A stretch of 64,000 nucleotides of DNA from Candidatus Nomurabacteria bacterium (GCA_020632095.1 JACKGF010000001.1:134549-198548); one strand, 5' to 3'; shown: positions 291 to 50,885, numbered from the stretch's first letter. Program-made: numbers and translations. The notes: generated by a model from the sequence alone, not told the origin.

Positions 291-1436
291 ATGAATCGAG
301 CTTCAAACTCATTCTCATTACTCCAAGCAACTGCAGCGACCTTAGGCCTAGCCATGCTCTTATGGTCATTTGGTCTACCGTCACTCCGCTTTGCGGAAGC
401 TGCCAATGTCACCTCTTTTAGCGATACACTATCGGACTCAGCTCCCAGTGTTGTAGCTAATCACACTATCCAGTTTGTAACACCAACCGGTCTTGCAGCT
501 GGAGAAATTATTAGTCTAACGTTCCCTGCTGGGTTTACTGGCATCGGAGCTTTAACGGCGGAGGATCTTGATCTTAAAGTCAACGGTGTCGACCAGGATT
601 TAGATGATAATCCTGCCAGTGGCGCAATCTGGAATGTAACTGCTGCGGGTCAAGTAATTGACATCGAAAGTGGTACTGACACGGTTGGTCCTGGAGAAAC
701 AGTGATTATCGAGATTGGTCTAAACGCCAGTTACGCTAGTACTAGTGATAGCCAAATCACTAACCCAGCTGGTCTAACTTCATACGAAATTGGACTTACA
801 CTCAGTAACAGTGATACTGGTAAAACTAGAGTAGCTATTGTTGACTCAGTTACAGTAACTGCTTCGGTTGATACTTTGTTTACCTTTACGGTGAATGGAG
901 TAGCTGCTGGAACATTGGTTAACACAGCTGATTCAACAGGTGGAGACACTACAGCAACGGCGATTCCTTTTGGAGTTCTTGATGCTGATACAGCTAGTAC
1001 TGCAGCCCAAAACATTGAAGTGTCTACCAACGCAGCTAATGGTTTTGTGGTAACAGTCGAAACTGACCACCAGCTACTTTCTGCCAACGGTGCTGATATC
1101 GACGGTTTCCGTAACGGAAGCTACGATGCTTCACCAGTAGCTTGGGAATCACCAGGAGCAACGCCTGGACAAGAAAATGAATATGGTCACTGGGGTATTT
1201 CGTCTAACGATACTACTCTTACCGGTGGTTTAAGCGATTTCTTTTCTGGCGGTGATAACTTTGTGTCTGCATCCACAACTCCAGTTGAGGTGTTCCGACA
1301 TGATGGTCCTACTGATGGTACCGTAGCTGGTGAAGGTAATGCCGACATCATCTACATGGTTGAAACTACTGCTTTGCAGGAAGCAGCCGAAGACTATACT
1401 GCTACATTGACATATGTAGCAACACCAGTGTTCTAA
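291..1436 (+). CDS. secreted Thr/Ser/Gly-rich cell-surface protein; stand-alone homolog of the C-terminal ~280-aa domain of the giant protein 7914..14057 (ends ...YVATPVF)
   Basis: 381-aa ORF. N-terminal signal peptide (LGLAMLLWSFGLPSLRFAEA followed by AANVT). Low-complexity beta-type composition. C-terminal 30 aa DIIYMVETTALQEAAEDYTATLTYVATPVF aligns with DVVYRVMVTEMQPAGDYETNIVYIAVPVF at the end of the 2047-aa protein; further upstream blocks also align (STNAANGFVV / STNATEGYQV). Confidence 0.6.
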   Translation: MNRASNSFSLLQATAATLGLAMLLWSFGLPSLRFAEAANVTSFSDTLSDSAPSVVANHTIQFVTPTGLAAGEIISLTFPAGFTGIGALTAEDLDLKVNGVDQDLDDNPASGAIWNVTAAGQVIDIESGTDTVGPGETVIIEIGLNASYASTSDSQITNPAGLTSYEIGLTLSNSDTGKTRVAIVDSVTVTASVDTLFTFTVNGVAAGTLVNTADSTGGDTTATAIPFGVLDADTASTAAQNIEVSTNAANGFVVTVETDHQLLSANGADIDGFRNGSYDASPVAWESPGATPGQENEYGHWGISSNDTTLTGGLSDFFSGGDNFVSASTTPVEVFRHDGPTDGTVAGEGNADIIYMVETTALQEAAEDYTATLTYVATPVF

Positions 1437-1507
1437 CGAATATTGGCTCTAAGCTTGGAGTTAAAAGACAAAAGACCCTATCTCCCACCACGAGAAGGGT
1501 TTTTTGT

Positions 1508-2623
1508 ATGTGTACAGATAAAGAATATGACGGTATTAGTTGCTATAATAAGTTAATGTTAAATTCAGCGCGTTTTCTAGTGGGAATATTCCTAGGAAGT
1601 ATTTTTTTGATTCCGTTGTACTCTGAAGCCGCTTCGCTATACATAGATCCAGCTATCAGTACTCTAAATAGAGGTGATTCAGCCAAGATGGTGCTTCGTC
1701 TTGATACAGATGAGGCAGCTGAAGAGTGTGTTAATGCTGTCGATGGTGTGGTTACTTATTCGGATAATATTGAACCAGTAGACGTTTCGATTGGAAATTC
1801 AATTTTTAACATGTGGGTTGAGAGGCCTGTTATTAATAAAGAAAATAAAACAATTACCTTTGCTGGCGGTATACCAAATGGATATTGCGGTCGTGTGCAG
1901 GGTGATCCAAGGTTAACTAACATAATTGCCGAAATCGTATTTCGTTCGCCAGGTTTTTCAGTTGGTGCAGGGAGTAATGTTGAAAATACCGCTACAGTTG
2001 ACTTTACTTCCTCAAGTACGGCATACCTAAATGATGGTTTTGGTACTAAAGCTGATTTAAATTTGTATGGAGCTAAAATAGAACTTAATAAATCGGCTGG
2101 GGCAACAATGATTAATCCTTGGAAAGACGAAATTGAAGCTGATGATATCTTGCCGGAAAAGTTTAGCATTTCATTACAAAAAGACGACAAAGCTTTTTCA
2201 GGTAAGTACTACATAGTTTTTAGTACAACTGATAAACAAACTGGTATTGATCACTATGAAGTGATGGAGGAGCCTTTAACACAATTCGGTTCGTTTCAGT
2301 GGGGAAGAGCAGATGCTCCTTGGCTGATGGTCAAACAACCGCCAGTTCATGTTCTTAAAGATCAATCACTCAATAGTATAATCAGAGTTAAAGCGATTGA
2401 TAAAGCAGGTAATGAATACATTGCAACTTATATTCCAGATGATTCACTTAGAACCTTTTCAAGAAGTGAGTTTCTAGTGTATGGATTTGGGATTGCTGGC
2501 TTGATAATAATTATTATTGTTGGGCTGGCAGTCTTCACTTATGTAAAGAAAAAAAGACGAAGTAAAACTGATGATAGGGTAGATATTGAAGATGATTCAG
2601 ACGCTAATAATCTTGAAGAGTAA
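1508..2623 (+). CDS. cohesin-like domain surface protein with C-terminal TM anchor (paralog 1); alternative start ATG 1556
   Basis: 371 aa. The signal peptide is best from M at 1556 (MLNSARFLVGIFLGSIFLIPLYSEA). N-terminal ~150 aa (ASLYIDPAISTLNRGDSAKMVLRLDTDE...NMWVERP...TFAGGIPNGY) is homologous to the N-termini of 2625..4394 and 5089..5847. C-terminal hydrophobic helix GFGIAGLIIIIIVGLAVFTYV followed by KKKRRSK stop-transfer. Confidence 0.6.
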   Translation: MCTDKEYDGISCYNKLMLNSARFLVGIFLGSIFLIPLYSEAASLYIDPAISTLNRGDSAKMVLRLDTDEAAEECVNAVDGVVTYSDNIEPVDVSIGNSIFNMWVERPVINKENKTITFAGGIPNGYCGRVQGDPRLTNIIAEIVFRSPGFSVGAGSNVENTATVDFTSSSTAYLNDGFGTKADLNLYGAKIELNKSAGATMINPWKDEIEADDILPEKFSISLQKDDKAFSGKYYIVFSTTDKQTGIDHYEVMEEPLTQFGSFQWGRADAPWLMVKQPPVHVLKDQSLNSIIRVKAIDKAGNEYIATYIPDDSLRTFSRSEFLVYGFGIAGLIIIIIVGLAVFTYVKKKRRSKTDDRVDIEDDSDANNLEE

Positions 2624-2624
2624 T

Positions 2625-4394
2625 ATGATCTTTATAAAAAAACATAGATTAATAGGACAGATACACCCATTTTTTTTAGCGATTCTAATTGGAGTTACAT
2701 TCTTTTTTCTTTCGATCTCTATAACGGAAGCCGCCTCTTTGTCACTGTCACCAAATACCGGGGTGTACTCAACTAATGGTACTTTTTCAGTGAAGGTGCA
2801 AGTCAATACGGGTGGTCAAGCTATTAATGCAGCTGAAGGAACACTTTCTTTCAATCCGAGAGAACTATCGGTCGTATCAGTTAATCGTACTGGTTCAATT
2901 TTCAATTTATGGGTTGCAGAGCCAACCTTTTCTAATAGTGCTGGTACTATAAATTTTAGCGGTGGCTTACCATCTGGTTATAGTAGTGCGGTTGGAAACA
3001 TAATGAATATCACTTTTCGAGCCGCTGGAGCTGGTACCGCTCGGGTGTCATTTACCAATGGCTCAGTGCTGGCTAATGATGGTCGAGGTACCAATGTACT
3101 GACGGCAATGAATGGTGGAACGTACACTATACAAGCACAATCTGAGGCTCCAAAAGCCGAGGTTATTGAATATGTCGCTCCAGCCAATACTCCGGCTGCC
3201 CCGATTGTAAATTCAAAGACTCATGGTGATCAAAAGGCATGGTATAAAAGTAAAGAAGCAATTTTGTCCTGGACACTACCAAGCGGTGTAACTGCTGTAA
3301 GAACTTTGTTGGACGAAAGTCTAACGACAGTTCCTACTAAAGTCTACGAGAACCCAATTAGCACTATTACACTTAGTGATCTACCTGATGGTGAGTCTTA
3401 TTTCCATGTTCAATTTAAAAATGCTGATGGTTGGGGTAAGGTTACTCACTATCGATTAGCAGTCGATAGTGAACGTCCAACTAGTATTGAGATATCTCAA
3501 GCAAGTGGTTATGATTTAGGTAATCCAAACCAAATTTTGAGTGTAAAAGTTGAGGATGAGACTAGTGAAGTGAAAAGGTATAAGGTTAAACTTGATACGG
3601 ACGAACCTTTTGAATACATTGATGAGACTGGTTCCAGCACCATTCCTTTACCAGCGCTTAATCCAGGCTACCACAACGCCTTCATCGAAGCGTTTGACGA
3701 AGCAGGTAATAGTATAACCGGTGCTTTCTCATTTACGATTGAGGCCTTCAGTAAACCAATCTTTACTGATTATCCATCAGAAATAAATGAAGAAGTAATA
3801 CCTGTTATTAAAGGTTTAACTCGACCAAATGCAAAGATTGAGGTGTTTGTGCGTAGAGTTGGCAGTGAACCAAATTCCTACAATATTTCAAGTAATGATG
3901 CTGGAGAATTTGTTTTCATACCAGAAGGAACTTTCCAGACAGGTGTGTATGAATTATCAGCTCAAGCGACTGATGAATATGGCGCTCTTAGTGATGTGTC
4001 AGAAGTGATTAAAATAGCTGTCCAACAGCCTGGTTATTTAAGAGTCGGTTCAATGATTGTAGATGCTCTGTCTGTAGTAATTCCACTTATTGTTTTGGTC
4101 CTTTTCTTGATTGTTGGCACATGGTATTTAATAGCTTACCTTGGTCGCTTTAGGAGACGAGTGCGAGTAGAGTCTTTTGAAGCGTTGGAGATTTTGCATC
4201 GCGAGTTTTCTTCTTTACAGAAAACCTTACGTGATCAAGAGTTAGTAATGATTGAGTCAAGAAAAACTAAGAAATTAACCAAGGCCGAGTCTGATATGAT
4301 TGGTGTGCTTGATAACGCCTTATTGGCTGCACAAAGTAAGGTAGAGAAGGAGATAGAAGACGTGACCGAATTAACCCGTAAGAATAGTAACTAA
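2625..4394 (+). CDS. cohesin-like domain large surface protein with C-terminal TM anchor and coiled-coil cytoplasmic tail (paralog 2)
   Basis: ORF track start 2586 overlaps the upstream gene; in-frame ATG 2625 directly follows the upstream stop (taATATG) and gives a signal peptide (FFLAILIGVTFFFLSISITEA). Domain ASLSLSPNTGVYSTNGTFSVKVQVNTGG...NLWVAEP...NFSGGLPSGY is paralogous to 1508 and 5089. TM VVIPLIVLVLFLIVGTWYLIAY near the C-terminus, then a charged coiled-coil tail. Confidence 0.6.
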   Translation: MIFIKKHRLIGQIHPFFLAILIGVTFFFLSISITEAASLSLSPNTGVYSTNGTFSVKVQVNTGGQAINAAEGTLSFNPRELSVVSVNRTGSIFNLWVAEPTFSNSAGTINFSGGLPSGYSSAVGNIMNITFRAAGAGTARVSFTNGSVLANDGRGTNVLTAMNGGTYTIQAQSEAPKAEVIEYVAPANTPAAPIVNSKTHGDQKAWYKSKEAILSWTLPSGVTAVRTLLDESLTTVPTKVYENPISTITLSDLPDGESYFHVQFKNADGWGKVTHYRLAVDSERPTSIEISQASGYDLGNPNQILSVKVEDETSEVKRYKVKLDTDEPFEYIDETGSSTIPLPALNPGYHNAFIEAFDEAGNSITGAFSFTIEAFSKPIFTDYPSEINEEVIPVIKGLTRPNAKIEVFVRRVGSEPNSYNISSNDAGEFVFIPEGTFQTGVYELSAQATDEYGALSDVSEVIKIAVQQPGYLRVGSMIVDALSVVIPLIVLVLFLIVGTWYLIAYLGRFRRRVRVESFEALEILHREFSSLQKTLRDQELVMIESRKTKKLTKAESDMIGVLDNALLAAQSKVEKEIEDVTELTRKNSN

Positions 4395-4400
4395 TACAAT

Positions 4401-5087
4401 ATGAACACTGAAAAAAAATCAGAATGGTTGAACGTAAAAAATATACTGGTCGCCCTAGTGGGAATAATCGTTATGTACTTCATAGTGACAACATTAGTAG
4501 ACTTAAGGTTTCAGGCCCTAGAGATTGCTACTAAAGTCAGGATTTCTGATCAAGAAGCTTTGCTGGATAAAATTGCAGAAATAACTGCTAGAAATGGAGC
4601 AGATAGTGTTACTGAATCAATCATAAAAGATTGCTCTGTAACTGAGAGAATCCAGTTTGATACTTTACTAGGTCATTTAAATAATGGTTTGGACAAAACT
4701 GAGTTAGTTGAATTGGAGAGGTTGTTTGGTCGTTGTGGAAGATTTTTTTCAGATCGAAAGTCAGTTATGGTATCTCGTTTATCAAGAGAAGTTGAAATAT
4801 ATAGCGATTATGTTGACCAATTAAGTACTATTACTGGTCATAGTCAAACAACATCTTTTCCAGTAGGAGAGTGGGAGGCTCTAGCTAAGGCAGAAAGGAA
4901 ACAAGCTGAGTATTCAGTTGAACTAGTGCGTTTGCAAGATGCAATAATCTCAACTTTGTTATTAGGCAAAAACGCAGAGTCTGAAGAAATTAACGAAATA
5001 CTAAAACAGGTTCAAGAAGTTCAAACAAATTTATATGAAGCAAAAAAAGCTACCATAGATATTACTAATAGCCTGTCTTCTTTGTAA
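4401..5087 (+). CDS. N-terminally membrane-anchored coiled-coil protein, function unknown
   Basis: 228 aa. One N-terminal TM (ILVALVGIIVMYFIVTTLV). The rest is predicted helical/charged. No recognisable catalytic motif. Confidence 0.45.
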   Translation: MNTEKKSEWLNVKNILVALVGIIVMYFIVTTLVDLRFQALEIATKVRISDQEALLDKIAEITARNGADSVTESIIKDCSVTERIQFDTLLGHLNNGLDKTELVELERLFGRCGRFFSDRKSVMVSRLSREVEIYSDYVDQLSTITGHSQTTSFPVGEWEALAKAERKQAEYSVELVRLQDAIISTLLLGKNAESEEINEILKQVQEVQTNLYEAKKATIDITNSLSSL

Positions 5088-5088
5088 G

Positions 5089-5847
5089 TTGATATTTATT
5101 ATGGGTCGAATTGTAAATTACTTTAAAAATATATTTAAAGAAAAACCGAAAAAATATACAATTCGATTCATGTTTCCTGCGCTTATAATGTTCGCGGCTA
5201 TATTTGGAGCCGCAGCAGTAAGTACTAGTCAGCAATCATATATCAGACTTGAGTCGACAGAATCTACTATTGAAGCAGGGAAAAGATTTACCTTAAACGT
5301 TTATGCTAATGCACATGTACCGGTTAACGCTGTAGACGTGACGCTTAAGTTTGACCCTAAGGCAGTAAAAGTGATGGAGGTCGATAGAGGTCAATCTGTT
5401 TTGACTATCTGGACTCAAGATCCAATTATTCAGGAGAACAGTGTCATTCTAAGGGGAGGAACCTTTAAAAGAGGTTTTATTGGTGAACATAAGATTGCTT
5501 CAATTGATCTCTTGGCCCTAAGTACTGGTCAAAGTAGCTTAAGTGCAACTAACGTTGTTTTGTTGGCTGGAGATGGAAAGGGTACTCCGGTGACTGTTGG
5601 TCAAAATGACAAATCATCAGTCAATTTGTATATATATGACGAGAACACTAGTCTCGAAAGTATTGGGGTTAATGTCGCAATTAAAATCATAACTGACATT
5701 GATGGTGATGGTAAGGTTAGTCTAAAAGACATTAGTGCGTTTATGGCAGCATGGGCTAATAAAGACGTTTCTTACGATTTTAATGGTGATGGTAAGATGA
5801 CATTTCGAGACTTCTCTATAATTCTTGCCGATTTCTTCTTTAAGTAA
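5089..5847 (+). CDS. cohesin-like domain protein with C-terminal type-I dockerin (paralog 3)
   Basis: 252 aa. N-terminal TM/signal (FMFPALIMFAAIFGAAAV). Domain SYIRLESTESTIEAGKRFTLNVYANAHVP...LTIWTQDP...RGGTFKRGF is paralogous to 1508 and 2625. The C-terminus DIDGDGKVSLKDISAFMAAW...DFNGDGKMTFRDFSIILADF is a canonical duplicated Ca-binding dockerin repeat. Confidence 0.65.
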   Translation: MIFIMGRIVNYFKNIFKEKPKKYTIRFMFPALIMFAAIFGAAAVSTSQQSYIRLESTESTIEAGKRFTLNVYANAHVPVNAVDVTLKFDPKAVKVMEVDRGQSVLTIWTQDPIIQENSVILRGGTFKRGFIGEHKIASIDLLALSTGQSSLSATNVVLLAGDGKGTPVTVGQNDKSSVNLYIYDENTSLESIGVNVAIKIITDIDGDGKVSLKDISAFMAAWANKDVSYDFNGDGKMTFRDFSIILADFFFK

Positions 5848-6000
5848 CATTTTACATATTTGTCAAGCGTTTTTTTGTTTAAATTTGCTTGATTATCAAC
5901 AGAAAAGTGAATAACCTTGGTGATAAATAGTGGACAACACTGGTATTATTATTGTGTGATGGGAATAATTTGTTATCACAACAAAACTGTTGGGTCATAA

Positions 6001-7881
6001 ATGTCACAAAAAAGTACAAAAATTAAAATCACTAACAATCTATCGACTAGTCAGGGGCGCCGTGCAAGCGAGCGTTCTACTAGGGTATTTGGTGGTGCCA
6101 GAGATCCTTCCGTTCAGGAAACAGTTTTCTTGTACAAGTTAGTTTTCAATACTAGAAAAGCAGTCCTGCTGTCAGTTTTGTTGTTGTTATGTTTTGTGTC
6201 TCAACCATTTCAAAATGTTTATGCTGAAGAAACAACTGCTGACATTGTCCCAGCTTCAGCCAAGGTAGAGATACCTCCAGAATTTACTCAAGAAACTGTT
6301 AAGGCCGAAGTGATTTCGGAAGCACCTAGTCAGAAGAGTGAAGAAATATCAACTGATGTCTCAAAAGATATTGCTTTAGTTGATAATGGCCCGCCAGAAG
6401 TTATCGCTACTGATCAAGAACCTGAAAAAGCTACTTCTAGTAGTGCGGTTGTAGTATCTAAGTCAGCTAGTACAACAAAAGTTGTTTCTGCTGTGACAGA
6501 GGCTAGTGCTTCAAGTAGTGAAATAATAAATATAGACACTTCAAGTATAGTCTCAACTTCAACTCAAAAATCTACCTCGACACTACTTAGTGACGAGTCT
6601 TCAGGTGGCACAAGTGGAGGTTCTGGAACTACTGACTCTAACGAAGATCAAACACCAGATGAAGAGCTAGACTCAGATACTACTGCTTCTAGTACCGAGA
6701 TTACTGACGTTGGTAAAGTCGACAATGAAGAAGTCTCGGCTGATGATAATTCTGTTGATGAGATTAATGACGAGGTTGGGTCGGGTAGTGGTGTATTGGA
6801 AAGTGCAGATGTAGAAATATCTGATGAAGTTGATGAGGTTGGTACAAATGATAATCTAGTCTCATATGTTGAAAGTGACTCACAGTTTTCTTTCCTTAAA
6901 AGTGAATGCACTAGAATTGAAGAAGGTTCATTTTACTGTCAGAAGAAAGACTCTTCTGTACACACAGAAGACTCCTTAGTAGCTGCTCCTGACGCAGATG
7001 GTGATTTGGAAATATACCTAGTACGGGACGGTGAACGGACCCAGATTACACATAATAAAGTCGATGATGCTTCGCCTTACTATGATGAATATTCAAAGAC
7101 AATTGTATGGCACCGTCTGGTAAATGATCGATATCAAATTATTTCTTATGACACCAATACAGGTAAAGAAGTTCAGTTGACTGATACTGATGTTAACAAT
7201 ATGGAACCAACTCGACACGGAGAATACACAGTTTGGCAACGTTGGGTGCATGATAACTGGGAGATAATGTTATTTGATGGTTCTAAAGAGAAACAAATTA
7301 CTAATTCTTCTAGACACGATATTGCTCCACATGTTAGAGGACCATTGATCATATGGAATAGTCGTTCTAACGACGGTACACAGTCTCTAATGACTTATGA
7401 CATTAAAGATAGAACCTATACCACTATTGCTGATGGTGAAGGTGTTTCGGTGTCTAACCCAAGATTGATGGTTATGTATGAAGCGATGTATGAAAATGGT
7501 GATGTTGTGATGAAAGGATTTGACGTGGTAACTGGTAAAATCATGCCCCTTCAATCCTTACCTCAGGAATTGCCGACAGATTTACCAAATACCGATTCAA
7601 CTGGAGAGACTAGAGCCTTAATTCAAACTAAGCCAGCTCCCAAGCAGTCAGAGATAGTGAATAATAATGAAACAACGTCAAGTGGTAGTTCAACTCCACC
7701 TATCTTACCTGACATAGATATTGATCAAACATTAGATTTGCGTGCAACCAGTACTGTCGATATCGAGCAGGTAAACGAAGTGTTTGAGAGTCCAACTTCC
7801 ACTATCCCAGACCTAGTAGTTCCGATCGCTACGTCATCACCTGATACCTCTTCAAGTTCACAGACTACTGCTGAATCATAA
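6001..7881 (+). CDS. secreted Ser/Thr/Asp/Glu-rich protein with C-terminal TolB/PD40-like beta-propeller repeats
   Basis: 626 aa. Hydrophobic signal/anchor (AVLLSVLLLLCFVSQPF). Long acidic S/T-rich low-complexity middle. The C-terminal half has repeated motifs typical of TolB-like propeller blades (GDLEIYLVRDGERTQITHN..., YQIISYDTNTGKEVQLTD..., WEIMLFDGSKEKQITNS..., QSLMTYDIKDRTYTTIADGEG). Confidence 0.55.
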   Translation: MSQKSTKIKITNNLSTSQGRRASERSTRVFGGARDPSVQETVFLYKLVFNTRKAVLLSVLLLLCFVSQPFQNVYAEETTADIVPASAKVEIPPEFTQETVKAEVISEAPSQKSEEISTDVSKDIALVDNGPPEVIATDQEPEKATSSSAVVVSKSASTTKVVSAVTEASASSSEIINIDTSSIVSTSTQKSTSTLLSDESSGGTSGGSGTTDSNEDQTPDEELDSDTTASSTEITDVGKVDNEEVSADDNSVDEINDEVGSGSGVLESADVEISDEVDEVGTNDNLVSYVESDSQFSFLKSECTRIEEGSFYCQKKDSSVHTEDSLVAAPDADGDLEIYLVRDGERTQITHNKVDDASPYYDEYSKTIVWHRLVNDRYQIISYDTNTGKEVQLTDTDVNNMEPTRHGEYTVWQRWVHDNWEIMLFDGSKEKQITNSSRHDIAPHVRGPLIIWNSRSNDGTQSLMTYDIKDRTYTTIADGEGVSVSNPRLMVMYEAMYENGDVVMKGFDVVTGKIMPLQSLPQELPTDLPNTDSTGETRALIQTKPAPKQSEIVNNNETTSSGSSTPPILPDIDIDQTLDLRATSTVDIEQVNEVFESPTSTIPDLVVPIATSSPDTSSSSQTTAES

Positions 7882-7913
7882 GAAAAATAAGGTAATATAT
7901 AAGGAACGGAGTT

Positions 7914-10900
7914 ATGTATCAACTGCGCACATTAGAACGTGTTAAAAGTAGTGTTTCTGCAGGATTGATTTTTTCAATTGCTATGCAGCTGTTTGGAGTT
8001 TTGCTACTGCAGATTGTTTTATTGTACCCACAGGCGGTTGAAGCAGCTGAGGTGGTGATTGATAGTACAGTAAGTACGAATGCGGCTGCTAACACATTTG
8101 CTGGTGCGCAGACAGCTTTTACTGATGATCAAACCGGCTATACTTTTTATCGAGATAGTAATAACACTTGTGTTTATAGTAAGACTACTGATGGAGGAAA
8201 TACGTGGGGTTCTGCTGTTACTGTCGATAGTCAAACTGACTGTCTGGAAATTGTTATTTGGTACGACCGTTGGACTCCGGGTGATAGTACTGGAAATTAC
8301 ATTCATATTTCCACTATGGACAGTGGGGATGATGACCTTTTTTATAATCGTCTCGATACAACCAGTGATACTCTGTTGATGGGGTCTGCACCGGTTAATG
8401 TTTCAACCAGTTCTGGACAAGTGCCATCATTGGCAAACACTGTTAACGCTCAGACTATTACCAAAGCAACTGACGGTAAAATCTACATGGCTGTTAATGA
8501 CGTGAGTGATTCATTTGTGGTGTCTTGCTCTGCGAGTTGTGAAACTGAGTCAAATTGGACTGAAGTTGGGACTAGCCCATATGACAGTACAAATGACTTT
8601 AACTTACTAGTTCCTCTGTCAGGAGGAAATGTAATGACCATAAACAGAGATATTTCAGCTGATGATATCCGTTCGGCAATTTGGGATGGAGCTAATTGGT
8701 CGGGGTGGACTAATATTGATATTAACGCTCCTGAAAATTCAACTTTCGATGTCGGGATGTCTGTCACTGTAGATGTTGATACCGGGAGCATCTATCTGGC
8801 TTATGTTGCTGATAATAACGACATGGTAACGGCGGATCATGATATTAGAACAGCTGTCTATACGTCTGGGGTTTGGACAAATAAGACAGACGTTTTGACC
8901 AATGTCTCTGGCCGGGGTATTCATAATACAGCTATTGCCTATGATCAAAATAAAGGTGATGTGTATGTTTCTTATGCAATTGAGGATACTATTGGTACTC
9001 CTACTAGCGCCAATATCTATTGGAAGAAATCAACAGATGGAATGACTACTTGGGGCACAGAACAAGGCCCGATCAATACTACCAGTGGAAATATATATGG
9101 CCCATCATTAAACCTAAATAGTCACGAAAGAATTTATGCTACTTGGTATGATCCAGCAGTTAATGATCGATTTGGTAATACTGTGGCTGATATCGGGCCC
9201 GATACTATTTTGGCCTCAATCGGAACTCAGGTTTCGTCAATCAAGACCAATGATACAGGTGTATATCTAGGGGGTGCATTTACAGTTAAATCGATTTCTA
9301 GTCGAACTATTTCTACTTTTAAAATTACAGAGAAAGGCACTGTTGATGCACAAAATGATTTGAATAACATTAAACTTTTTTACGACCTAGATGTTTCTTT
9401 TCCATACGACTGTGTTAGTGAATCATACTCCGGTGGAGAGTCTCAATTTGGTGTGACAGATACCAATGGTTTCTCTGGAGTTGATGGCACATCAAATTTT
9501 ACCGGTTCAATTGTTAATGTGACACCGACTCAGACTATGTGTGTGTATGTTGTGCTTGATGTATTGAGTACAGCCAATGATACTGATACGATTGAAATTG
9601 AAGTTACAAATCCTTCTACTGATGTAACAGTTTCTGGCGAAACTGTTTATCCTGCTACATCGATTGAAATAGCTAGTACTACAAATATCGTTAGTCCAGA
9701 TTTAACCCAAATTCACTATCATTGGCGAAATGATGATGGAACAGAAAGTGGAGCAACCTCAGCTACGGCTGGTGCGGAAGACACTCCCATTAGTTCACTA
9801 ATAAAAGAGACTCCGATCAGGCTACGTATGGAAGTCTCAAATGAAGGTTCAACCTCAACTGATGCAACGTTTCAGCTTGAATACGGTCTAGCGGCGCCAA
9901 CCTGTGGTGATGTTGCTAGTTGGACTGACGTAGGTGCAACTGATGATGCTTGGAATATGTATCCGACCGCTAATTTAAACGATGGTGATAGTACGACGGA
10001 TATTTCAAATACAATCGGTGGAGTCACTTTTGAAAATTCAAATTTTCTGAGTCCAAACTATGGTGTTAAAGATGCATTCTCAACGACTAGTAGTTTGACT
10101 CTCGATACTATAGATTACGTTGAATTAGAGTTTTCATTAGTAGCCTCTAGTTCTGCGGTGGAAGGAGAGACGTATTGTTTTCGGCTGACTGATTCTGGTA
10201 CGCCATTAAACACTTACAGTGTTATTCCACAAGCGACAATCAGCGCCGATATTATAGCGGCAGCAGTTGGGACTCATATAACTAATGCTGACATACCGAC
10301 TACCGCCGCTTATCTGGGGGGCTCATTTTCACTAAAGTCAACTTCTGGCTCACATACAATCACTAACGTTACAATTACTGAAACTGGAACGATTGATGCC
10401 TCGACCGGGCTTAGTAATATAAAATTATTCTATGAATCGGATCTGAGTAATCCTTACGATTGCACCAGTGAATCCTACGCAGGAACCGAGACTCAGTTTG
10501 GTGGTACAGATACTGATGGATTTAGTGGTCCAAATGGTACTTCGACTTTTTCTGACTCGGTTGGCATTACGGCTACCAGCACGTTGTGTTTGTATGTTGT
10601 TTCAGATATTACCACCTTACCAATTAATGGTGAAACAGTATCTTTTCAAATCACTTCACCAACCTCTGATGTAGTGGCAGGGGCTTCTTCTGTCGCTCCG
10701 GGTACACCTATTTCAATTACAGCCTCTACTACCTTGCAAGGTGGGCTCCTTACCCAAACACATTATCATTGGCGATACAACAATGGTGGTGAAAGTACTT
10801 CAACTTCAGCCACTTTTGGAAACGAAGATACTCCGGTTACAGATTTTGATTTGTCTTCAAAGATTCGCCTTCGTCTTGGTGTTTCAAATGAGGGTGCTAC

Positions 10901-13900
10901 TTCGTCAGTTGCTACTAGATTTAGACTAGACTATGCCCCTAAGATTACTACCTGTGATGTGGTGTCAGTTTGGACCGATGTTAATGGTGTTGCAGATGAT
11001 AGTTGGGATATGACAGACTCTATATATCTAACTAACGGTGAGGATACAGCTAATATTGCTGAAGCGATTGGTGGTTTAACTGATGAAAACAGCAATTATC
11101 TATCCTCAAACGGTGGAGTTAGGGATACTGAATCATTGACAGCCAGTACAACCTTGACGGAGTTAAACTATGTGGATTTGGAATACAGCATCAAGTCAAC
11201 CATCAGTACCCCAAATGATGCAACTTTCTGCTTTAGGGTTAGTGCCAACGGCACGTCACTACCAGCTTATACAAATTACGCTGAAATTACAACAGCTAAA
11301 AAACGCGATTTTAAGGTACAGCGTGGAACTACCACAATTTCTGGCACATCGGTTACATTGGTGGCTGGAGTTGACTACGATGTGCCTCAGGTTGCCACCT
11401 CTTCATTTATCCGTATTACAAATAGTCACTACACTGGTGCTGGAGATACAACTCTTGGTGGTGCCCAAAATGCTGACGATGTAACTGCTTATATCTCCAA
11501 TCCAGAAAATATTCTTACAAGTGTTACTTTTAATCGGTTGGGTGCAGTTAATGATACTTATATTGATTGGGAGATAGTAGAGTTTGTAGGTACTCCAAGT
11601 ACCGATAATGAGATGGTGGTTAGAGACGTGGGGTCGGTAACTATTAGTAGTGGGGCGCTAGTGGCAACAGGCACAACAATATCAGTTACCGATGATAGTG
11701 ATGTAGTAGTTTACATCACTGGTATTAGAAATCGAAACACCTCAAGAAACTACTACGCTGGACAAGTAACGTCAGCTTGGGATGCTGCAAGTGATGCGCC
11801 CGTATTTACTAGAGGTGCTACTGGAGGTTCTATTGTTGACGTTAGTTATGCAGTAGTTGAGTATGTTGGTATGAATTGGAATATCCAACGAGCTGAACAT
11901 ACCTACACCGCGTCAGGTGTACCTGAACCAGAGGCAATTACACCGGTTGGTTCCTTGTCTCAAACATTTATTCATGCCCAGAAACGAATGGGAGCAAGTA
12001 CTAATGTGGTACATTTTGGACATACCGTTTGGTTGCCTAGCATCAGCTATTTATCGCTTGAACTTGAAACTGGTGCTGATACAGGTGTTGGTCAAACTGC
12101 CGTTGTATGGATAATAGAAAATACTCAAACTGGTTCAAATGCAATGCAGGTTCAAAGATTGAGTGGAAACACTTCTGGTGGTGCTGAACCGTTAATATTA
12201 GAAATCGGTATACCAATTCATCTTGATTCTAGCAGTAATAGTTCAATTTTTGTAAGTAGTAGGGCAGCTGGTACTAATAATGGCTACCCTCGACCGATAA
12301 TGGGTGCCAGAATTACTTCGACATCAACCCTAGAATTATGGCGAAGTGACACCGGGACAACTCTTAATTATAGAATTGAATTAGTAGAATGGCCGGTGGC
12401 TGACTTAGCTCAGAGACAAAATTACTATCGATTTTACGTAGATAATGACGCATTAACCCCAAGCGACCCTTGGCCAGCTGGTGCTACCAACCTTGGAGAG
12501 AACACTAGTATTACCGATGCTGACGATCCTCCGGGGGCGGATGTTTACTTAAGACTTCGTATGTCAGTACGTATTGCAAATGCAAATCTTCCCGCTGGAT
12601 TTCAACAATACAAACTGCAGTACGCAGAAAGGGCGGTAACTTGTTCAGCTACTACTGATTGGCACGATCTGGGTGATACTGCTAGCTCAAGTATATGGCG
12701 TGGCTATCCGGGGTCAGGTACTAGTGATGGAGATAATTTGTCATCAGATCCGTATTTGCCGGGTGACTTGTTAATTTCAGTGTCTGACGTGGCTGGTCGA
12801 TTGGAGCATGAAAACCCATCAGCCGTAAACTCATATCCTGTGCTTGATGGGGAAGATGTTGAGTATGATTGGTATATTCAACATAATGGAGCAAATCCAG
12901 ATACTGTCTATTGTTTCAGAATGATAAAAGATGATGGATTGCTACTAGAAGGCTATCTAAATTACCCACAAATTAAAACAGCTGGTTTTCAGCCAGCTTC
13001 AAAGAATTGGCAGTGGTACGATGATCCTGATAATGAGACACCAGCTAGTCCAGCCGCAGCTGAAAATGTCACGCCAAGCAATATTGCAATTGACGATACT
13101 TTAGCTCTCCGAGTGACTGTTAAAGAATTATCAAACGTTCCTGGGGCAGATATTAAATACAAACTGCAATTTTCTGATGATATAAACTTTGTTAATCCTG
13201 TTGATGTTGTGGCAACTAGTTCTTGTGTTGAGAATTCCCTTTGGTGCTACTACGAAGGTGGGGGAGTTGACAATGATCTAATTACAACCTCACTGCTAAC
13301 TGATGGGGATGGGTGTGTTGGTGGAGCGGGTAATGGTTGTGGAACTCATAATGAATCAGCTACGTATGTAACCGGACACCTACATGGTGCTACTAGAGCT
13401 CAGGAATATTCATTCACGATTAAGCAAGCAGGAGCGCGGGTAAATGCCATTTATTATTTTAGACTGGTTGAAATACTTAGTTCTGATGTTGTAATTCTGG
13501 ATACCGGTGAAACCTATCCGTCAGTACAAGTTGGTCCTTCGACTTTGTCATTCTCGGTGGCTGGTTTGCCGGCTGGTACTACAACCGCTAGTGTGGTGAC
13601 AGATGCTACTACTACAGCAACTAGTGTTGGTTTTGGTTCGATTCCGTTTAATAATGATCAGATAGCTGCTCAGAGAATTTCAATTAGCACAAATGCTACT
13701 GAAGGTTACCAAGTCCTTCAATACGCTGGTCAGGATTTGACTAGTAGTAATGGAACAACAATTAATTCTGTAAGTTCAACCAACGCCACTCCGAGCGGTT
13801 GGGCGACAGCTTGTCTCGGAACAGCTACTGGCTGTATCGGATACCATACGACTGATGCGATTTTGGAAGGTGGATCAGCTCGTTTTGCACCGTCGGACAC

Positions 13901-14057
13901 CTATGCACCTCTACATACCGATCCACAAGAAATTATCTATAGTTCAGTTCCAGTCGATAGTACAGAGGATGTTGTGTATCGGGTGATGGTAACTGAAATG
14001 CAACCAGCTGGAGATTATGAGACTAACATTGTCTATATAGCCGTTCCGGTCTTCTAG
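7914..14057 (+). CDS. giant (2047 aa) secreted surface protein: N-terminal BNR/sialidase-like propeller, two ~349-aa tandem repeats, several R-W-x-N-D-D-G modules, C-terminal PVF domain
   Basis: Signal peptide (IFSIAMQLFGVLLLQIVLLYPQAVEA). BNR motifs S-x-D-x-G-x-T-W (SKTTDGGNTWGS, KKSTDGMTTWGT). Tandem repeat aa ~430-660 vs ~780-1010 (YLGGAFTVKS...HYHWRNDDGTESGATSATAGAEDTP...IRLRMEVSNEG vs YLGGSFSLKS...HYHWRYNNGGESTSTSATFGNEDTP...IRLRLGVSNEG). Similar modules recur (YYRFYVDND..., NWQWYDDPDNE...). The C-terminal domain is shared with 291..1436. Confidence 0.7.
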   Translation: MYQLRTLERVKSSVSAGLIFSIAMQLFGVLLLQIVLLYPQAVEAAEVVIDSTVSTNAAANTFAGAQTAFTDDQTGYTFYRDSNNTCVYSKTTDGGNTWGSAVTVDSQTDCLEIVIWYDRWTPGDSTGNYIHISTMDSGDDDLFYNRLDTTSDTLLMGSAPVNVSTSSGQVPSLANTVNAQTITKATDGKIYMAVNDVSDSFVVSCSASCETESNWTEVGTSPYDSTNDFNLLVPLSGGNVMTINRDISADDIRSAIWDGANWSGWTNIDINAPENSTFDVGMSVTVDVDTGSIYLAYVADNNDMVTADHDIRTAVYTSGVWTNKTDVLTNVSGRGIHNTAIAYDQNKGDVYVSYAIEDTIGTPTSANIYWKKSTDGMTTWGTEQGPINTTSGNIYGPSLNLNSHERIYATWYDPAVNDRFGNTVADIGPDTILASIGTQVSSIKTNDTGVYLGGAFTVKSISSRTISTFKITEKGTVDAQNDLNNIKLFYDLDVSFPYDCVSESYSGGESQFGVTDTNGFSGVDGTSNFTGSIVNVTPTQTMCVYVVLDVLSTANDTDTIEIEVTNPSTDVTVSGETVYPATSIEIASTTNIVSPDLTQIHYHWRNDDGTESGATSATAGAEDTPISSLIKETPIRLRMEVSNEGSTSTDATFQLEYGLAAPTCGDVASWTDVGATDDAWNMYPTANLNDGDSTTDISNTIGGVTFENSNFLSPNYGVKDAFSTTSSLTLDTIDYVELEFSLVASSSAVEGETYCFRLTDSGTPLNTYSVIPQATISADIIAAAVGTHITNADIPTTAAYLGGSFSLKSTSGSHTITNVTITETGTIDASTGLSNIKLFYESDLSNPYDCTSESYAGTETQFGGTDTDGFSGPNGTSTFSDSVGITATSTLCLYVVSDITTLPINGETVSFQITSPTSDVVAGASSVAPGTPISITASTTLQGGLLTQTHYHWRYNNGGESTSTSATFGNEDTPVTDFDLSSKIRLRLGVSNEGATSSVATRFRLDYAPKITTCDVVSVWTDVNGVADDSWDMTDSIYLTNGEDTANIAEAIGGLTDENSNYLSSNGGVRDTESLTASTTLTELNYVDLEYSIKSTISTPNDATFCFRVSANGTSLPAYTNYAEITTAKKRDFKVQRGTTTISGTSVTLVAGVDYDVPQVATSSFIRITNSHYTGAGDTTLGGAQNADDVTAYISNPENILTSVTFNRLGAVNDTYIDWEIVEFVGTPSTDNEMVVRDVGSVTISSGALVATGTTISVTDDSDVVVYITGIRNRNTSRNYYAGQVTSAWDAASDAPVFTRGATGGSIVDVSYAVVEYVGMNWNIQRAEHTYTASGVPEPEAITPVGSLSQTFIHAQKRMGASTNVVHFGHTVWLPSISYLSLELETGADTGVGQTAVVWIIENTQTGSNAMQVQRLSGNTSGGAEPLILEIGIPIHLDSSSNSSIFVSSRAAGTNNGYPRPIMGARITSTSTLELWRSDTGTTLNYRIELVEWPVADLAQRQNYYRFYVDNDALTPSDPWPAGATNLGENTSITDADDPPGADVYLRLRMSVRIANANLPAGFQQYKLQYAERAVTCSATTDWHDLGDTASSSIWRGYPGSGTSDGDNLSSDPYLPGDLLISVSDVAGRLEHENPSAVNSYPVLDGEDVEYDWYIQHNGANPDTVYCFRMIKDDGLLLEGYLNYPQIKTAGFQPASKNWQWYDDPDNETPASPAAAENVTPSNIAIDDTLALRVTVKELSNVPGADIKYKLQFSDDINFVNPVDVVATSSCVENSLWCYYEGGGVDNDLITTSLLTDGDGCVGGAGNGCGTHNESATYVTGHLHGATRAQEYSFTIKQAGARVNAIYYFRLVEILSSDVVILDTGETYPSVQVGPSTLSFSVAGLPAGTTTASVVTDATTTATSVGFGSIPFNNDQIAAQRISISTNATEGYQVLQYAGQDLTSSNGTTINSVSSTNATPSGWATACLGTATGCIGYHTTDAILEGGSARFAPSDTYAPLHTDPQEIIYSSVPVDSTEDVVYRVMVTEMQPAGDYETNIVYIAVPVF
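9190..9890 (+). repeat. intragenic tandem repeat unit 1 (period 1047 nt) inside the giant protein gene
   Basis: The unit anchored at Y-L-G-G (nt 9264) is repeated at nt 10311. Protein-level identity is roughly 45-50% over ~230 aa; the DNA copies are diverged. Confidence 0.6.
10240..10940 (+). repeat. intragenic tandem repeat unit 2
   Basis: Second copy of the ~349-codon unit (YLGGSFSLKS ... FRLDYA), with matching landmark motifs. Confidence 0.6.
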
Positions 14058-14077
14058 ATGGTATGATGTAAGTAAGT

Positions 14078-27013: not shown

Positions 27014-27059
27014 ATTCTTATTGTACTGATATTTTTCCATTTTAGATGCAAACAAACTT

Positions 27060-50881: not shown

Positions 50882-50885
50882 AATA

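What the first reader, a model, noticed from the sequence alone, without database searches (positions are those of the whole stretch)
291..14057. Small secreted protein is a stand-alone copy of the giant protein's C-terminal domain; both end in ...Y-[VI]-A-[TV]-P-V-F
The last ~280 aa of 291..1436 and of 7914..14057 align block by block (STNAxxG[FY]xV, the DxxYxVxxTxxQxAxxDY block, and the final L/I-x-Y-[VI]-A-x-P-V-F-COOH). An aromatic C-terminal residue preceded by alternating hydrophobics resembles a beta-signal or a C-terminal sorting/anchoring tag. The duplication of one module as an abundant-looking small protein and as the tail of a 2047-aa adhesin-like protein suggests a shared assembly or anchoring function, for example an S-layer or pilus-like polymer with a tip or decorating giant subunit.
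Basis: seen in the sequence. Interest (0 to 1): 0.6.

Follow-up and report, generated by a model that had tools for sequence, protein, structure and literature searches.

The report
Pam/WxL-like pilus locus with giant adhesin
A small secreted protein and a 2047-residue surface protein of an ultrasmall (CPR/Patescibacteria) bacterium share one C-terminal domain that most likely lets them join into a thin pilus by strand exchange, with the giant protein as the sticky tip; this kind of pilus was first described only in 2026.

Summary
The shared C-terminal module is real, but it spans about 185 residues, not about 280 (BLASTP E 7e-15; shuffle z 23.5). The small protein is not a bare copy of the module. 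It has a signal peptide, its own beta-sandwich N-domain, a highly conserved linker with alternating hydrophobic residues, and then the shared domain.

The domain defines a large CPR-only family of 1906 clusters. It always sits at the extreme C-terminus, either in ~380-aa proteins or in giants of up to 5226 aa, and 97% of members end in an aromatic residue.

Family members give significant but sub-cutoff hits to NCBIfam CPR_Pam_pilin_C. Directly downstream lie two paralogous proteins, each with two Ig-like domains and a membrane anchor. Their best structural match is enterococcal WxLIP bound to a WxL domain, and chaperone-usher chaperones also match.

Best reading: a Pam-type, usher-less donor-strand pilus. 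The 381-aa protein is the major pilin. The giant lacks the donor linker and is the tip adhesin.

The gene-cluster logic is the same as in WxL clusters of Firmicutes, a link the Pam preprint does not mention.

The terminal YVATPVF is the last strand of a folded domain, not a sorting tag. Polymerisation itself was not tested.

The parts
291..1436 (+). Putative major pilin, 381 aa (mature ~35 kDa, pI 4.05, no Cys). Signal peptide is about residues 1-37 (nt 291-401), with a nearly invariant FAEA|AN site. Beta-sandwich N-domain is residues 38-181 (nt 402-833).
   Evidence: ORF. It is 100% identical to a hypothetical protein of Ca. Nomurabacteria. AF2 model has pLDDT 85, with strands 41-181.
834..878 (+). 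Linker, residues 182-196 (AIVDSVTVTASVDTL). Proposed donor strand with alternating hydrophobic residues V187/V189/A191/V193.
   Evidence: The segment is unstructured in the monomer AF2 model, with pLDDT about 70-84. I183 V187 V189 A191 V193 are invariant in 77 homologues. Mean identity of the linker is 0.74 against 0.54 for the N-domain in 76 species-level homologues. The motif [VI]x[VI]x[AS]x[VI] is present in 28 of 33 small pilins and in 1 of 66 giants.
879..1433 (+). Shared C-terminal domain of the small protein, residues 197-381. Proposed strand-acceptor (pilin-type) domain ending in ...TYVATPVF-COOH.
   Evidence: BLASTP to the giant, E 7e-15; z = 23.5. NCBIfam NF058581 CPR_Pam_pilin_C matches residues 221-259 at E 3.3e-5, 24 bits against a cutoff of 55. 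56 of 77 and 48 of 65 family members match it, best E 6.9e-10.
1468..1507 (+). Stem-loop followed by a U-run immediately after the pilin gene; probably an intrinsic terminator or attenuator.
   Evidence: Folding 1430-1512 as RNA gives -27.9 kcal/mol, z = -4.87, with 0 of 200 shuffles as stable. The consensus scanner missed it. The function is inferred.
1508..2623 (+). 371-aa surface protein: signal, cohesin-like N-domain, C-terminal TM helix and charged tail. Role unknown; possibly a scaffold or anchor.
   Evidence: ORF. Syntenic in 71 of 84 related loci. No Pfam family passes threshold.
2586..4394 (+). ~590-602-aa surface protein: cohesin-like domain, Big_13 Ig-like domain, TM helix and cytoplasmic coiled coil.
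   Evidence: Big_13 E 1.2e-10. The orthologue carries weak Cohesin and Big_13 marks. Syntenic in 74 of 84 loci and also present in the compact second-type loci.
4401..5087 (+). 228-aa membrane-anchored coiled-coil protein of unknown role.
   Evidence: ORF. Syntenic in 60 of 84 loci.
5089..5847 (+). 252-aa protein with a cohesin-like domain and a C-terminal dockerin/EF-hand-like repeat.
   Evidence: Cohesin E 9.4e-4 and Dockerin_1 E 1.9e-4, both just under their cutoffs. NCBIfam dockerin_GC E 7.7e-5. Syntenic in 72 of 84 loci.
6001..7881 (+). 626-aa protein: N-terminal TM segment, Ser/Thr/Glu-rich spacer and a TolB-like beta-propeller.
   Evidence: TIGR02800 propeller_TolB E 3.8e-5, sub-cutoff. 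Syntenic in 58 of 84 loci.
7914..13544 (+). N-terminal 1877 residues of the giant protein (mature protein ~213 kDa). Signal peptide, a possible BNR/sialidase-like propeller (about residues 60-430), and four copies of a ~185-aa module (596-785, 945-1135, 1498-1697, 1692-1880). Proposed adhesin stalk and head.
   Evidence: BNR_2 E 6.8e-5, sub-cutoff. Module alignment and pairwise E-values from 1e-53 to 6e-10. The last strand of module 4 (TYPSVQVGPS) abuts the shared domain, so there is no free linker.
13545..14057 (+). Shared C-terminal domain of the giant, residues 1878-2047, ending in ...VYIAVPVF-COOH, with a Cys pair (C1960...C1968). Proposed acceptor-only pilin domain.
   Evidence: Two Cys occur in the domain in 42 of 66 giants, against a mean of 0.24 in small pilins. 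In the 150 listed proteins the match runs to within a few residues of the C-terminus in all but one (P0381), in proteins of up to 5226 aa.
14078..15088 (+). 336-aa WxLIP-like / PamC-D-like protein: signal, two Ig-like beta-sandwich domains (28-161, 169-273), TM helix 276-305 and a short cytoplasmic tail. Proposed membrane-anchored chaperone or anchor.
   Evidence: AF2 pLDDT 88. Foldseek top hits are 9i25_C (WxLIP bound to long WxL, E 6.5e-11) and 9i1y. ASH/PapD-like folds, RbmA, and the CU chaperones EcpB and CsuC follow at about 1e-6. PF06030 WxLIP_PGBD matches 4 of 72 homologues, best E 0.005. The nearly invariant loop 83-95 is poorly ordered in the model.
15030..16700 (+). 556-aa paralogue of the previous protein (residues ~22-330) followed by a second TM segment and a LytR_C domain.
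   Evidence: BLASTP to the 336-aa protein, E 8e-19 over signal, both domains and the TM. LytR_C E 1.5e-8. Adjacent to the giant in the Kaiserbacteria chromosome CP060228 and in L062/L065.

Best explanation
The locus 291..16700 most likely encodes a Pam-type pilus, a chaperone-assisted, usher-less, donor-strand-exchange pilus, in a Paceibacteria-lineage CPR bacterium.

Proposed roles:
- The 381-aa protein is the major pilin. After Sec export and signal cleavage, its C-terminal domain is an incomplete Ig-like acceptor fold. The groove of that fold is filled by the conserved linker strand (residues ~182-196) of the next subunit, giving a linear filament.
- The 2047-aa protein carries the same acceptor domain but no donor linker. 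It can therefore only start a filament, which puts a ~210-kDa adhesin (propeller plus four repeated modules) at the distal tip. This parallels FimH/PapG and PamT.
- The two membrane-anchored two-Ig-domain paralogues (336 aa and 556 aa) hold and prime subunits at the membrane by lending a strand, and/or anchor the finished fibre. The 556-aa protein may do this through its LytR_C domain.
- The invariant aromatic C-terminus is the last strand of the acceptor domain, lying beside the groove.

Shown: the homology, the domain plan, the partner folds and the gene linkage.

Inferred: polymerisation, the direction of assembly, the tip position, and which partner is the chaperone and which the anchor.
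For: 1. The shared domain is real and specific.
2. The domain family gives significant hits to NCBIfam CPR_Pam_pilin_C in 56 of 77 and 48 of 65 members (best E 6.9e-10). Two members hit CPR_pilus_PamT at E 1.7e-7.
3. The AF2 model of the small protein (pLDDT 85) shows signal, beta-sandwich N-domain, unstructured linker and beta-rich C-domain. This is the plan reported for PamA/PamB by cryo-EM (doi 10.64898/2026.03.03.709456). Its mature mass of 35 kDa is close to the 38.7 kDa reported for PamB from its sequence.
4. The linker is among the most conserved segments, as reported for Pam pilins.
5. The linker motif is present in 28 of 33 small pilins and 1 of 66 giants. In the giant the equivalent residues are the last strand of repeat module 4.
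6. The two downstream paralogues have the architecture reported for PamC/PamD: two Ig-like domains and a C-terminal TM helix. They structurally match WxLIP, ASH/PapD-like folds and CU chaperones.
7. The genes are linked. The whole cluster is syntenic in ~60 of 84 related loci and in a complete Kaiserbacteria chromosome. In L062 and L065 the giant, three WxLIP-like genes and two pilin genes are contiguous.
8. A strong hairpin and U-run follows the pilin gene, compatible with excess expression of a major subunit.
9. In 1906 clusters the domain is always C-terminal, in ~380-aa proteins or in giants.
Against: - No family member reaches the curated NF058581 cutoff of 55 bits. Matches cover only about the first 40 of 148 profile positions.
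- HMM profiles find nothing among PDB sequences. The Pam structures were not in the searchable PDB copy, so there is no direct structural comparison with PamA/B.
- Foldseek of the pilin model returns generic two-Ig adhesins (ClfA/SdrG) with low TM-scores. A chaperone-usher tip adhesin (CupB6) appears only at rank 45.
- The WxLIP matches also have low global TM-scores (0.31-0.41), although probability is 1.0.
- No ATP-synthase neighbourhood is present in the window, unlike the reported pam context.
- The preprint reports Pam pilins mostly in Saccharimonadia and Microgenomatia.
Confidence: 0.6

Rival explanations
1. A WxL-type surface-display complex rather than a polymer. The shared C-terminal domain is a non-covalent cell-wall or partner-binding anchor, as proposed for WxL domains of Firmicutes. 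The small and giant proteins are each held singly on the surface by the WxLIP-like membrane proteins, which complete the domain by inserting a hairpin strand.
For: - The best structural match of the 336-aa neighbour is the crystal structure of E. faecium WxLIP bound to a long WxL protein (9i25_C, E 6.5e-11).
- PF06030 WxLIP_PGBD weakly hits 4 of 72 homologues.
- The cluster logic is identical to that described for WxL clusters: a small protein and a large protein sharing a strictly C-terminal domain, plus a protein with two Ig-like domains and a TM helix (PMC9772566, PMC10599100).
- Both domains carry two conserved aromatic-x-aliphatic motifs on separate strands. They are ~105-120 residues apart here, against 68-106 in WxL.
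Against: - Pfam WxL gives no hit in 142 family members even at E <= 10.
- The small protein has an extra N-domain and a conserved donor-like linker that small WxL proteins are not described to have.
- NCBIfam hits point to Pam pilins, which are proven filaments.
- The two readings may not be exclusive, because WxL proteins themselves might polymerise.
Confidence: 0.2
2. S-layer system. The 381-aa protein forms a 2-D lattice and the shared C-terminal domain docks both lattice subunits and the giant decorating protein to the envelope.
For: The small protein is acidic, Ser/Thr-rich (22.7%) and Cys-free. Its gene has its own terminator, which suggests high expression.
Against: - There are no SLH or other S-layer family hits.
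- Homology hits go to pilin families.
- The partner proteins are chaperone/WxLIP-like.
- A conserved linker strand is unexplained by a lattice model.
Confidence: 0.06
3. The terminal ...Y-[VI]-A-x-P-V-F is a C-terminal sorting or insertion signal: a beta-signal for outer-membrane insertion, or a tag recognised by a sortase-, exosortase- or T9SS-like processing enzyme.
For: The C-terminus is aromatic in 97% of 150 representatives. The domain is at or within a few residues of the C-terminus in all but one of them.
Against: - Conservation extends over a 170-185-aa folded domain, not a short tag.
- The last residues are predicted as an internal beta-strand of that domain.
- There is no TM or basic tail and no LPXTG/PEP-CTERM motif.
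- The window's ORFs scanned against Pfam and NCBIfam gave no sortase, exosortase or Bam match. A few ORFs were not scanned.
- CPR cells are generally regarded as lacking an outer membrane (general knowledge).
Confidence: 0.03

Closest known systems
Pam pili of Candidatus Mycosynbacter amalyticus (PamA/PamB pilins, PamT tip, PamC/PamD chaperones, PamR anchor; Troman et al., bioRxiv 2026, doi 10.64898/2026.03.03.709456; NCBIfam NF058581 and NF058579)
   Same: - Restricted to CPR.
- Sec signal, beta-sandwich N-domain, conserved linker strand and C-terminal Ig-like domain.
- A subunit that has the acceptor domain but no donor linker.
- Two paralogous proteins with two Ig-like domains and a C-terminal TM helix in the operon.
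- Significant HMM similarity to the start of the Pam pilin C-domain.
   Different: - All 142 tested family members score below the curated cutoff.
- The lineage is Nomurabacteria/Kaiserbacteria (Paceibacteria), not Saccharimonadia or Microgenomatia.
- The linker-less subunit is a 2047-aa multidomain giant (up to 5226 aa in relatives) instead of the single-domain PamT.
- The small pilin has no cysteines.
- The cluster additionally holds cohesin/dockerin-like membrane proteins and a propeller protein.
- There is no ATP-synthase neighbourhood within 64 kb.
WxL gene clusters of Lactobacillales/Bacillales (small WxL + large WxL + WxLIP = DUF916/DUF3324 + TM; PMC9772566, PMC10599100; PDB 9i25, 9i1y)
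   Same: - A small and a large secreted protein share a strictly C-terminal beta-rich domain with two aromatic-x-aliphatic motifs.
- The large protein carries N-terminal adhesin-like domains.
- A neighbouring protein has two Ig-like domains and a TM helix.
- The 336-aa protein's best PDB match is WxLIP bound to a long WxL.
- WxLIP completes the WxL fold by inserting a strand.
   Different: - No detectable sequence similarity to Pfam WxL. Y/F replace the tryptophans, and the Asp/Arg pair of motif 1 is absent (read from alignment A2).
- The small protein here has an extra N-domain and linker.
- There is no LPXTG protein in the cluster.
- WxL proteins are described as peptidoglycan-bound, not as filaments.
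- Structural comparison of the shared domain with a WxL domain could not be run.
Chaperone-usher pili of Gram-negative bacteria (Pap/Fim; two-domain tip adhesins FimH/PapG; chaperones PapD/FimC)
   Same: - The proposed mechanism: an incomplete Ig-like pilin domain completed by a donated strand.
- A tip adhesin made of a receptor-binding part followed by a C-terminal pilin domain with no donor strand.
- A conserved C-terminal strand ending in an aromatic residue.
- Two-Ig-domain chaperone-like partners. EcpB and CsuC are among the Foldseek hits at about 1e-6.
   Different: - No outer membrane and no usher.
- The partners are membrane-anchored by a TM helix.
- The donor strand is an inter-domain linker rather than an N-terminal extension.
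- The pilin has an additional N-domain.
- There is no sequence similarity to CU families.

Membership tests
Pam pilus system (CPR) | Pilin C-domain matches NCBIfam NF058581 (CPR_Pam_pilin_C) above the curated cutoff of 55 bits | tested here: not met
   Window pilin scores 24 bits, E 3.3e-5, covering positions 2-40 of 148. 56 of 77 and 48 of 65 family members match, best E 6.9e-10, all below cutoff. The similarity is significant but amounts to a sister family rather than membership by the curated rule.
Pam pilus system (CPR) | Pilin plan: signal peptide, ~9-strand beta-sandwich N-domain, linker strand, truncated Ig-like C-domain | tested here: met
   AF2 model, pLDDT 85: helix 10-26, strands 41-181, unstructured segment 182-196, beta-rich 197-381. 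Whether the C-domain fold is truncated or open was not examined because no coordinates were available.
Pam pilus system (CPR) | Linker and acceptor site are the most conserved regions | tested here: met
   Invariant I183 V187 V189 A191 V193. Linker identity 0.74 and C-domain 0.67 against N-domain 0.54. The mature N-terminus, residues 38-52, is also highly conserved (0.80).
Pam pilus system (CPR) | Operon encodes PapD/FimC-like chaperones carrying a C-terminal TM helix (PamC, PamD) | tested here: met
   Two paralogues (E 8e-19). AF2 shows two Ig-like domains and a TM helix. Foldseek returns WxLIP, ASH/PapD-like folds, EcpB and CsuC. There is no NCBIfam Pam-related hit.
Pam pilus system (CPR) | A subunit with the acceptor domain but no donor linker (tip, PamT) | tested here: inconclusive
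   The giant has the domain, and the linker motif is absent in 65 of 66 giants. The residues before the domain belong to repeat module 4. The tip position is inferred, not shown. The giant itself gave no NCBIfam hit at E <= 1, so it does not match PamT. Only 2 of the 65 members scanned hit NF058579, and that set held small and mid-size proteins, no full-length giants.
Pam pilus system (CPR) | Subunits polymerise into helical filaments by donor-strand exchange | not testable with these tools
   No multimer prediction was available.
WxL cluster (Firmicutes) | C-terminal domain matches Pfam WxL (PF13731), with the dual Trp-x-Leu motif | tested here: not met
   No WxL hit for the window proteins at E <= 1 or for 65 diverse members at E <= 10. 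The motifs here are G-[FY]-x-V and Y-[VI]-A.
WxL cluster (Firmicutes) | Cluster contains a small and a large protein with the same C-terminal domain, plus a WxLIP (DUF916 + DUF3324 + TM) | tested here: met
   This is met at the level of architecture and fold. The definition comes from PMC10599100 and PMC9772566. Sequence support for WxLIP is weak: PF06030 matches 4 of 72, best E 0.005.
WxL cluster (Firmicutes) | The shared domain has the WxL fold | not tested
Chaperone-usher pili | Outer-membrane usher and periplasmic PapD-family chaperone; pilins match fimbrial Pfam families | tested here: not met
   No usher, fimbrial or PapD Pfam/NCBIfam hits in the locus. The resemblance is one of mechanism and fold only.
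C-terminal sorting signals (LPXTG, PEP-CTERM, T9SS CTD, OMP beta-signal) | A short C-terminal motif followed by a hydrophobic/basic tail, or an OM-targeting terminal strand, with a cognate sorting enzyme or machinery | tested here: not met
   The proteins end in ...TPVF with no tail. The Gram_pos_anchor match is only a chance-level hit to the TM region of the 371-aa neighbour. The ORFs scanned gave no sortase, exosortase or Bam match; a few of the window's ORFs were not scanned.

The most novel reading that the evidence does not exclude
The CPR Pam-type pili and the WxL clusters of Firmicutes may be two branches of one ancient monoderm system. In it, a strictly C-terminal acceptor domain is completed by a strand from a membrane-anchored two-Ig-domain partner (WxLIP = PamC/D) and then by the linker of the next subunit.

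Under this reading, WxL 'cell-wall anchors' are really pilin-type domains. The giant CPR surface proteins (up to 5226 aa) are tip adhesins of such fibres, and they determine which host cell an ultrasmall epibiont can grasp.
Probability: 0.3. Interest if true: 0.8.

Novelty: new variant of a known kind. Interest (0 to 1): 0.6.

Why it matters
CPR/Patescibacteria make up a large share of bacterial diversity, and their cultivated members live attached to host cells (abstracts listed). How they reach and recognise hosts is largely unknown.

If this locus builds a Pam-type pilus, three things follow:
- The newly discovered pilus class extends into the Paceibacteria (Nomurabacteria/Kaiserbacteria), with 123 GTDB species representatives found here.
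- The giant, hypervariable surface proteins of these genomes gain a concrete role as exchangeable pilus tips.
- There is a simple sequence rule for finding them: the acceptor domain at the extreme C-terminus, an aromatic last residue and no donor linker.

The structural match of the partner proteins to enterococcal WxLIP also suggests that WxL clusters of lactic acid bacteria and enterococci, known as adhesion and virulence loci but mechanistically unclear, may work by the same strand-complementation principle. That idea is directly testable.

Tried and rejected
- Pfam, NCBIfam and PHROGs scans of the window proteins. Nothing passed threshold for the pilin, the giant or the 336-aa protein, and there was no phage relation.
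- phmmer and profile searches of PDB sequences with the pilin, the shared-domain profile, the 336-aa family profile and the giant's N-terminal 405 aa. No usable hit.
- Foldseek of the full pilin model against PDB. Only generic two-Ig adhesins with low TM-scores, and no Pam entries.
- Obtaining WxL or PamA/B sequences for a profile-profile comparison. The preprint supplement has no sequences. L. garvieae plasmid pGL5 turned out not to carry WxL genes. I abandoned this route.
I used the pilin alignment A1 instead.
- The consensus promoter/terminator scan was uninformative: 48 found against 47 expected.
- I looked for the ATP-synthase neighbourhood reported for pam operons. It is absent from the window.
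- I considered and rejected a beta-signal/sorting tag and an S-layer (see rivals).
- I tested the idea that the similarity extends into the ~96 residues before the domain. It does not (z = -1.2).

Full report
**What is in the sequence**

The window comes from a CPR/Patescibacteria genome. The 381-aa product of 291..1436 is 100% identical to hypothetical protein H6784_00500 of a Candidatus Nomurabacteria bacterium, on a 997-kb contig. ORFs 291..1436 (381 aa) and 7914..14057 (2047 aa) lie on the + strand of a co-directional cluster that runs to about 16700. They are the only two ORFs of the window that end in P-V-F.

**Check of the observation**

- BLASTP aligns small 197-381 with giant 1878-2047 at 34% identity, E 7e-15.
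- The Smith-Waterman score of these segments is 214, against 42.5 +/- 7.3 for 500 shuffles (z 23.5).
- The small protein's N-terminal part finds nothing anywhere in the giant.

The module is therefore ~185 aa in the small protein and ~170 aa in the giant, and the small protein is more than a stand-alone copy of it.

**How widespread the module is**

A profile of the module scored against 1.84 billion cluster representatives finds 1906 proteins at E <= 1e-3 and 376 at E <= 1e-30. In the 150 listed proteins the match runs to within a few residues of the C-terminus in all but one. They fall into three groups:
- proteins of ~365-400 aa with the small protein's plan;
- a middle class of 430-570 aa;
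- giants of 1000-5226 aa.

The last residue is F in 115, Y in 28 and H in 3 of the 150. In GTDB species genomes, 123 encode a relative of the small protein. None of the 80 record titles names a non-CPR organism: most read Patescibacteria, Kaiser-, Nomura-, Paceibacteria or 'Saccharibacteria', and a few read only 'bacterium'.

**What the small protein looks like**

AlphaFold2 with 77 homologues gives pLDDT 85. The model has a signal-like helix at 10-26, a beta-sandwich at 41-181, an unstructured stretch at 182-196 and a beta-rich domain at 197-381 whose last strand is 373-379.

The unstructured stretch (AIVDSVTVTASVDTL) is almost invariant, with alternating hydrophobic residues. The mature protein is ~35 kDa, acidic and free of cysteine. 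The gene is followed by a strong hairpin and U-run at 1468-1507 (z -4.9).

**Link to a known system**

NCBIfam NF058581, 'CPR_Pam_pilin_C, Pam pilus system pilin subunit', matches residues 221-259 at E 3.3e-5. That is 24 bits against a cutoff of 55. The same model matches 56 of 77 close homologues and 48 of 65 diverse domain-bearing proteins (best E 6.9e-10). NF058579 (PamT) matches two members.

The family comes from a 2026 preprint (doi 10.64898/2026.03.03.709456). Its main findings are:
- Cryo-EM of filaments of the Saccharimonadia parasite Ca. Mycosynbacter amalyticus showed pilins PamA and PamB. Each has a signal peptide, a nine-strand beta-sandwich N-domain, a linker strand and a truncated Ig-like C-domain.
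- The linker of one subunit completes the C-domain of its neighbour.
- The operon also encodes PamT (C-domain only, no linker, proposed tip), PamC/PamD (PapD/FimC-like, but with a C-terminal TM helix) and PamR (RbmA-like anchor).
- The linker and acceptor site are the most conserved parts.

The small protein here reproduces that plan and that conservation pattern. By the curated score rule, however, it belongs to a sister family rather than to NF058581 itself.

**The giant**

It has a signal peptide, a weak BNR/sialidase-like signal near the N-terminus and four copies of a ~185-aa module. The residues just before the shared domain (TYPSVQVGPS) align with the last strand of the other three modules. 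They are therefore part of module 4 and not a free linker.

Across the representatives, the linker motif [VI]x[VI]x[AS]x[VI] occurs in 28 of 33 small proteins but in only 1 of 66 giants. A protein that has the acceptor domain but no donor strand can only sit at the start of a strand-exchange polymer. This is the logic of FimH/PapG and of PamT (established knowledge of chaperone-usher pili). The tip position here is an inference. The giants' domain usually has a Cys pair that the small pilins lack.

**The neighbours**

The 336-aa product of 14078..15088 is modelled at pLDDT 88 as signal, two beta-sandwich domains (28-161 and 169-273), a TM helix at 276-305 and a short tail. Its Foldseek hits in the PDB, in rank order, are:
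- 9i25_C, 'WxLIP from Enterococcus faecium locus A bound to long WxL' (E 6.5e-11), and 9i1y;
- ASH/PapD-like folds (CEP192 SPD-2, HYDIN) and RbmA;
- the chaperone-usher chaperones EcpB and CsuC, at about 1e-6.

Global TM-scores are low (0.31-0.41), as expected for two hinged domains plus a helix. The first 330 residues of the 556-aa product of 15030..16700 are a paralogue (E 8e-19), followed by a second TM segment and a LytR_C domain. The locus thus has two membrane-anchored two-Ig-domain proteins, as the pam operon does.

The most conserved segment of the 336-aa family (residues 83-95) is a poorly ordered loop in the monomer model. This is reminiscent of the WxLIP hairpin that becomes a strand inside WxL. 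That comparison is only a lead.

**Gene linkage**

The order pilin, two cohesin-like membrane proteins, coiled-coil protein, cohesin/dockerin-like protein, propeller protein, giant is kept in about 60 of 84 related loci. The whole cluster, including both WxLIP-like genes, is syntenic in the complete Kaiserbacteria chromosome CP060228. In L062 and L065 the giant, two WxLIP-like genes, two pilin genes and a third WxLIP-like gene are contiguous. Several genomes also have a second, compact locus in which a pilin gene sits next to a WxLIP-like gene.

**The WxL parallel**

WxL clusters of Lactobacillales and Bacillales are defined by three components (PMC9772566, PMC10599100):
- a small WxL protein;
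- a large protein with N-terminal adhesin-like domains and a strictly C-terminal WxL domain;
- WxLIP, which is DUF916 plus DUF3324 (two Ig-like domains) with a TM helix, and which is predicted to complete the WxL fold by inserting a strand.

That is the same logic as this locus, and the partner protein's best structural match is WxLIP itself.

**Conclusion**

The best-supported explanation is a Pam-type, usher-less, strand-exchange pilus. The 381-aa protein is the major subunit, the 2047-aa protein is an acceptor-only tip adhesin, and the two WxLIP-like proteins are membrane-anchored chaperones and/or anchors (confidence about 0.6).

The conserved aromatic C-terminus is the final strand of the acceptor domain, not a sorting tag. 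The main rival is a non-polymeric WxL-like display complex (about 0.2). The two readings may converge if WxL systems also work by strand exchange.

Polymerisation, the direction of assembly and the tip position remain untested here. Multimer prediction and a structural overlay with PamA/B and with the WxL chain of 9i25 would decide them.

Noticed in passing
window 1508..2623, 2586..4394, 5089..5847: Three neighbouring surface proteins share a cohesin-like N-domain. Two are TM-anchored. The third also carries a dockerin/EF-hand-like C-terminal repeat. Together they suggest a cohesin-dockerin scaffold encoded inside the pilus cluster. All matches are just under Pfam cutoffs.
   Followed up: partly
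L062 9917..21071, L065 8551..18209, L066 9713..21040, L083 2947..11705, L058 8060..14769: Several related genomes hold a second, compact locus type. It has one or two pilin genes, a ~360-400-aa WxLIP-like gene, and two or three ~280-aa proteins ending in ...GFRC (a resemblance to formylglycine-generating-enzyme-type domains recalled from memory, not tested). It also has a ~620-670-aa protein ending in FSIL[IL]F[HN]WTG whose N-terminus resembles the pilin N-domain, and a coh602-like protein.
   Followed up: partly
window 1468..1507: A strong hairpin and U-run lies right after the pilin gene and abuts the ATG of the next ORF (z = -4.87). The consensus terminator scan missed it.
   Followed up: partly
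window 14078..15088 and 15030..16700: The two WxLIP-like ORFs overlap by 59 nt as listed, with a GTG start for the second. The same overlap is called in the Kaiserbacteria orthologues. The true start was not determined.
   Followed up: no
window 13545..14054 and representatives P0277-P0423: The shared domain of the giants usually contains a Cys pair (W-x-x-x-C...G-C), seen in 42 of 66. The small pilins have essentially none. This suggests a disulphide specific to the giant or tip subunit.
   Followed up: partly
window 47618..52445 (- strand): An AcrB/RND-type transporter (E 1e-176) sits beside a HlyD-family membrane-fusion protein. This is unexpected if, as is usually assumed, the organism has no outer membrane.
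   Followed up: no
window 26207..30961: A response regulator and a histidine kinase flank an 854-aa Big_13/TSP3-repeat surface protein. Large unannotated proteins lie at 37166..39655 (829 aa) and 41775..44816 (1013 aa).
   Followed up: no
loci L006, L007, L011, L018, L019 and others: Many genome records carrying close homologues (up to 74% identity) are titled 'uncultured Candidatus Saccharibacteria bacterium'. Their nearest named relatives are Kaiser-, Nomura- and Paceibacteria. These may be generic pipeline labels, so taxon counts taken from record titles should be treated with care.
   Followed up: no
representatives P0309, P0310, P0316, P0321, P0334, P0346 (431-445 aa) and P0351, P0360, P0365, P0372, P0386, P0410 (~560 aa): A middle size class of signal-peptide proteins also carries the C-terminal domain. 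These may be further pilin types or minor subunits. Two of the 65 members scanned hit NCBIfam PamT; which two they were was not resolved.
   Followed up: no
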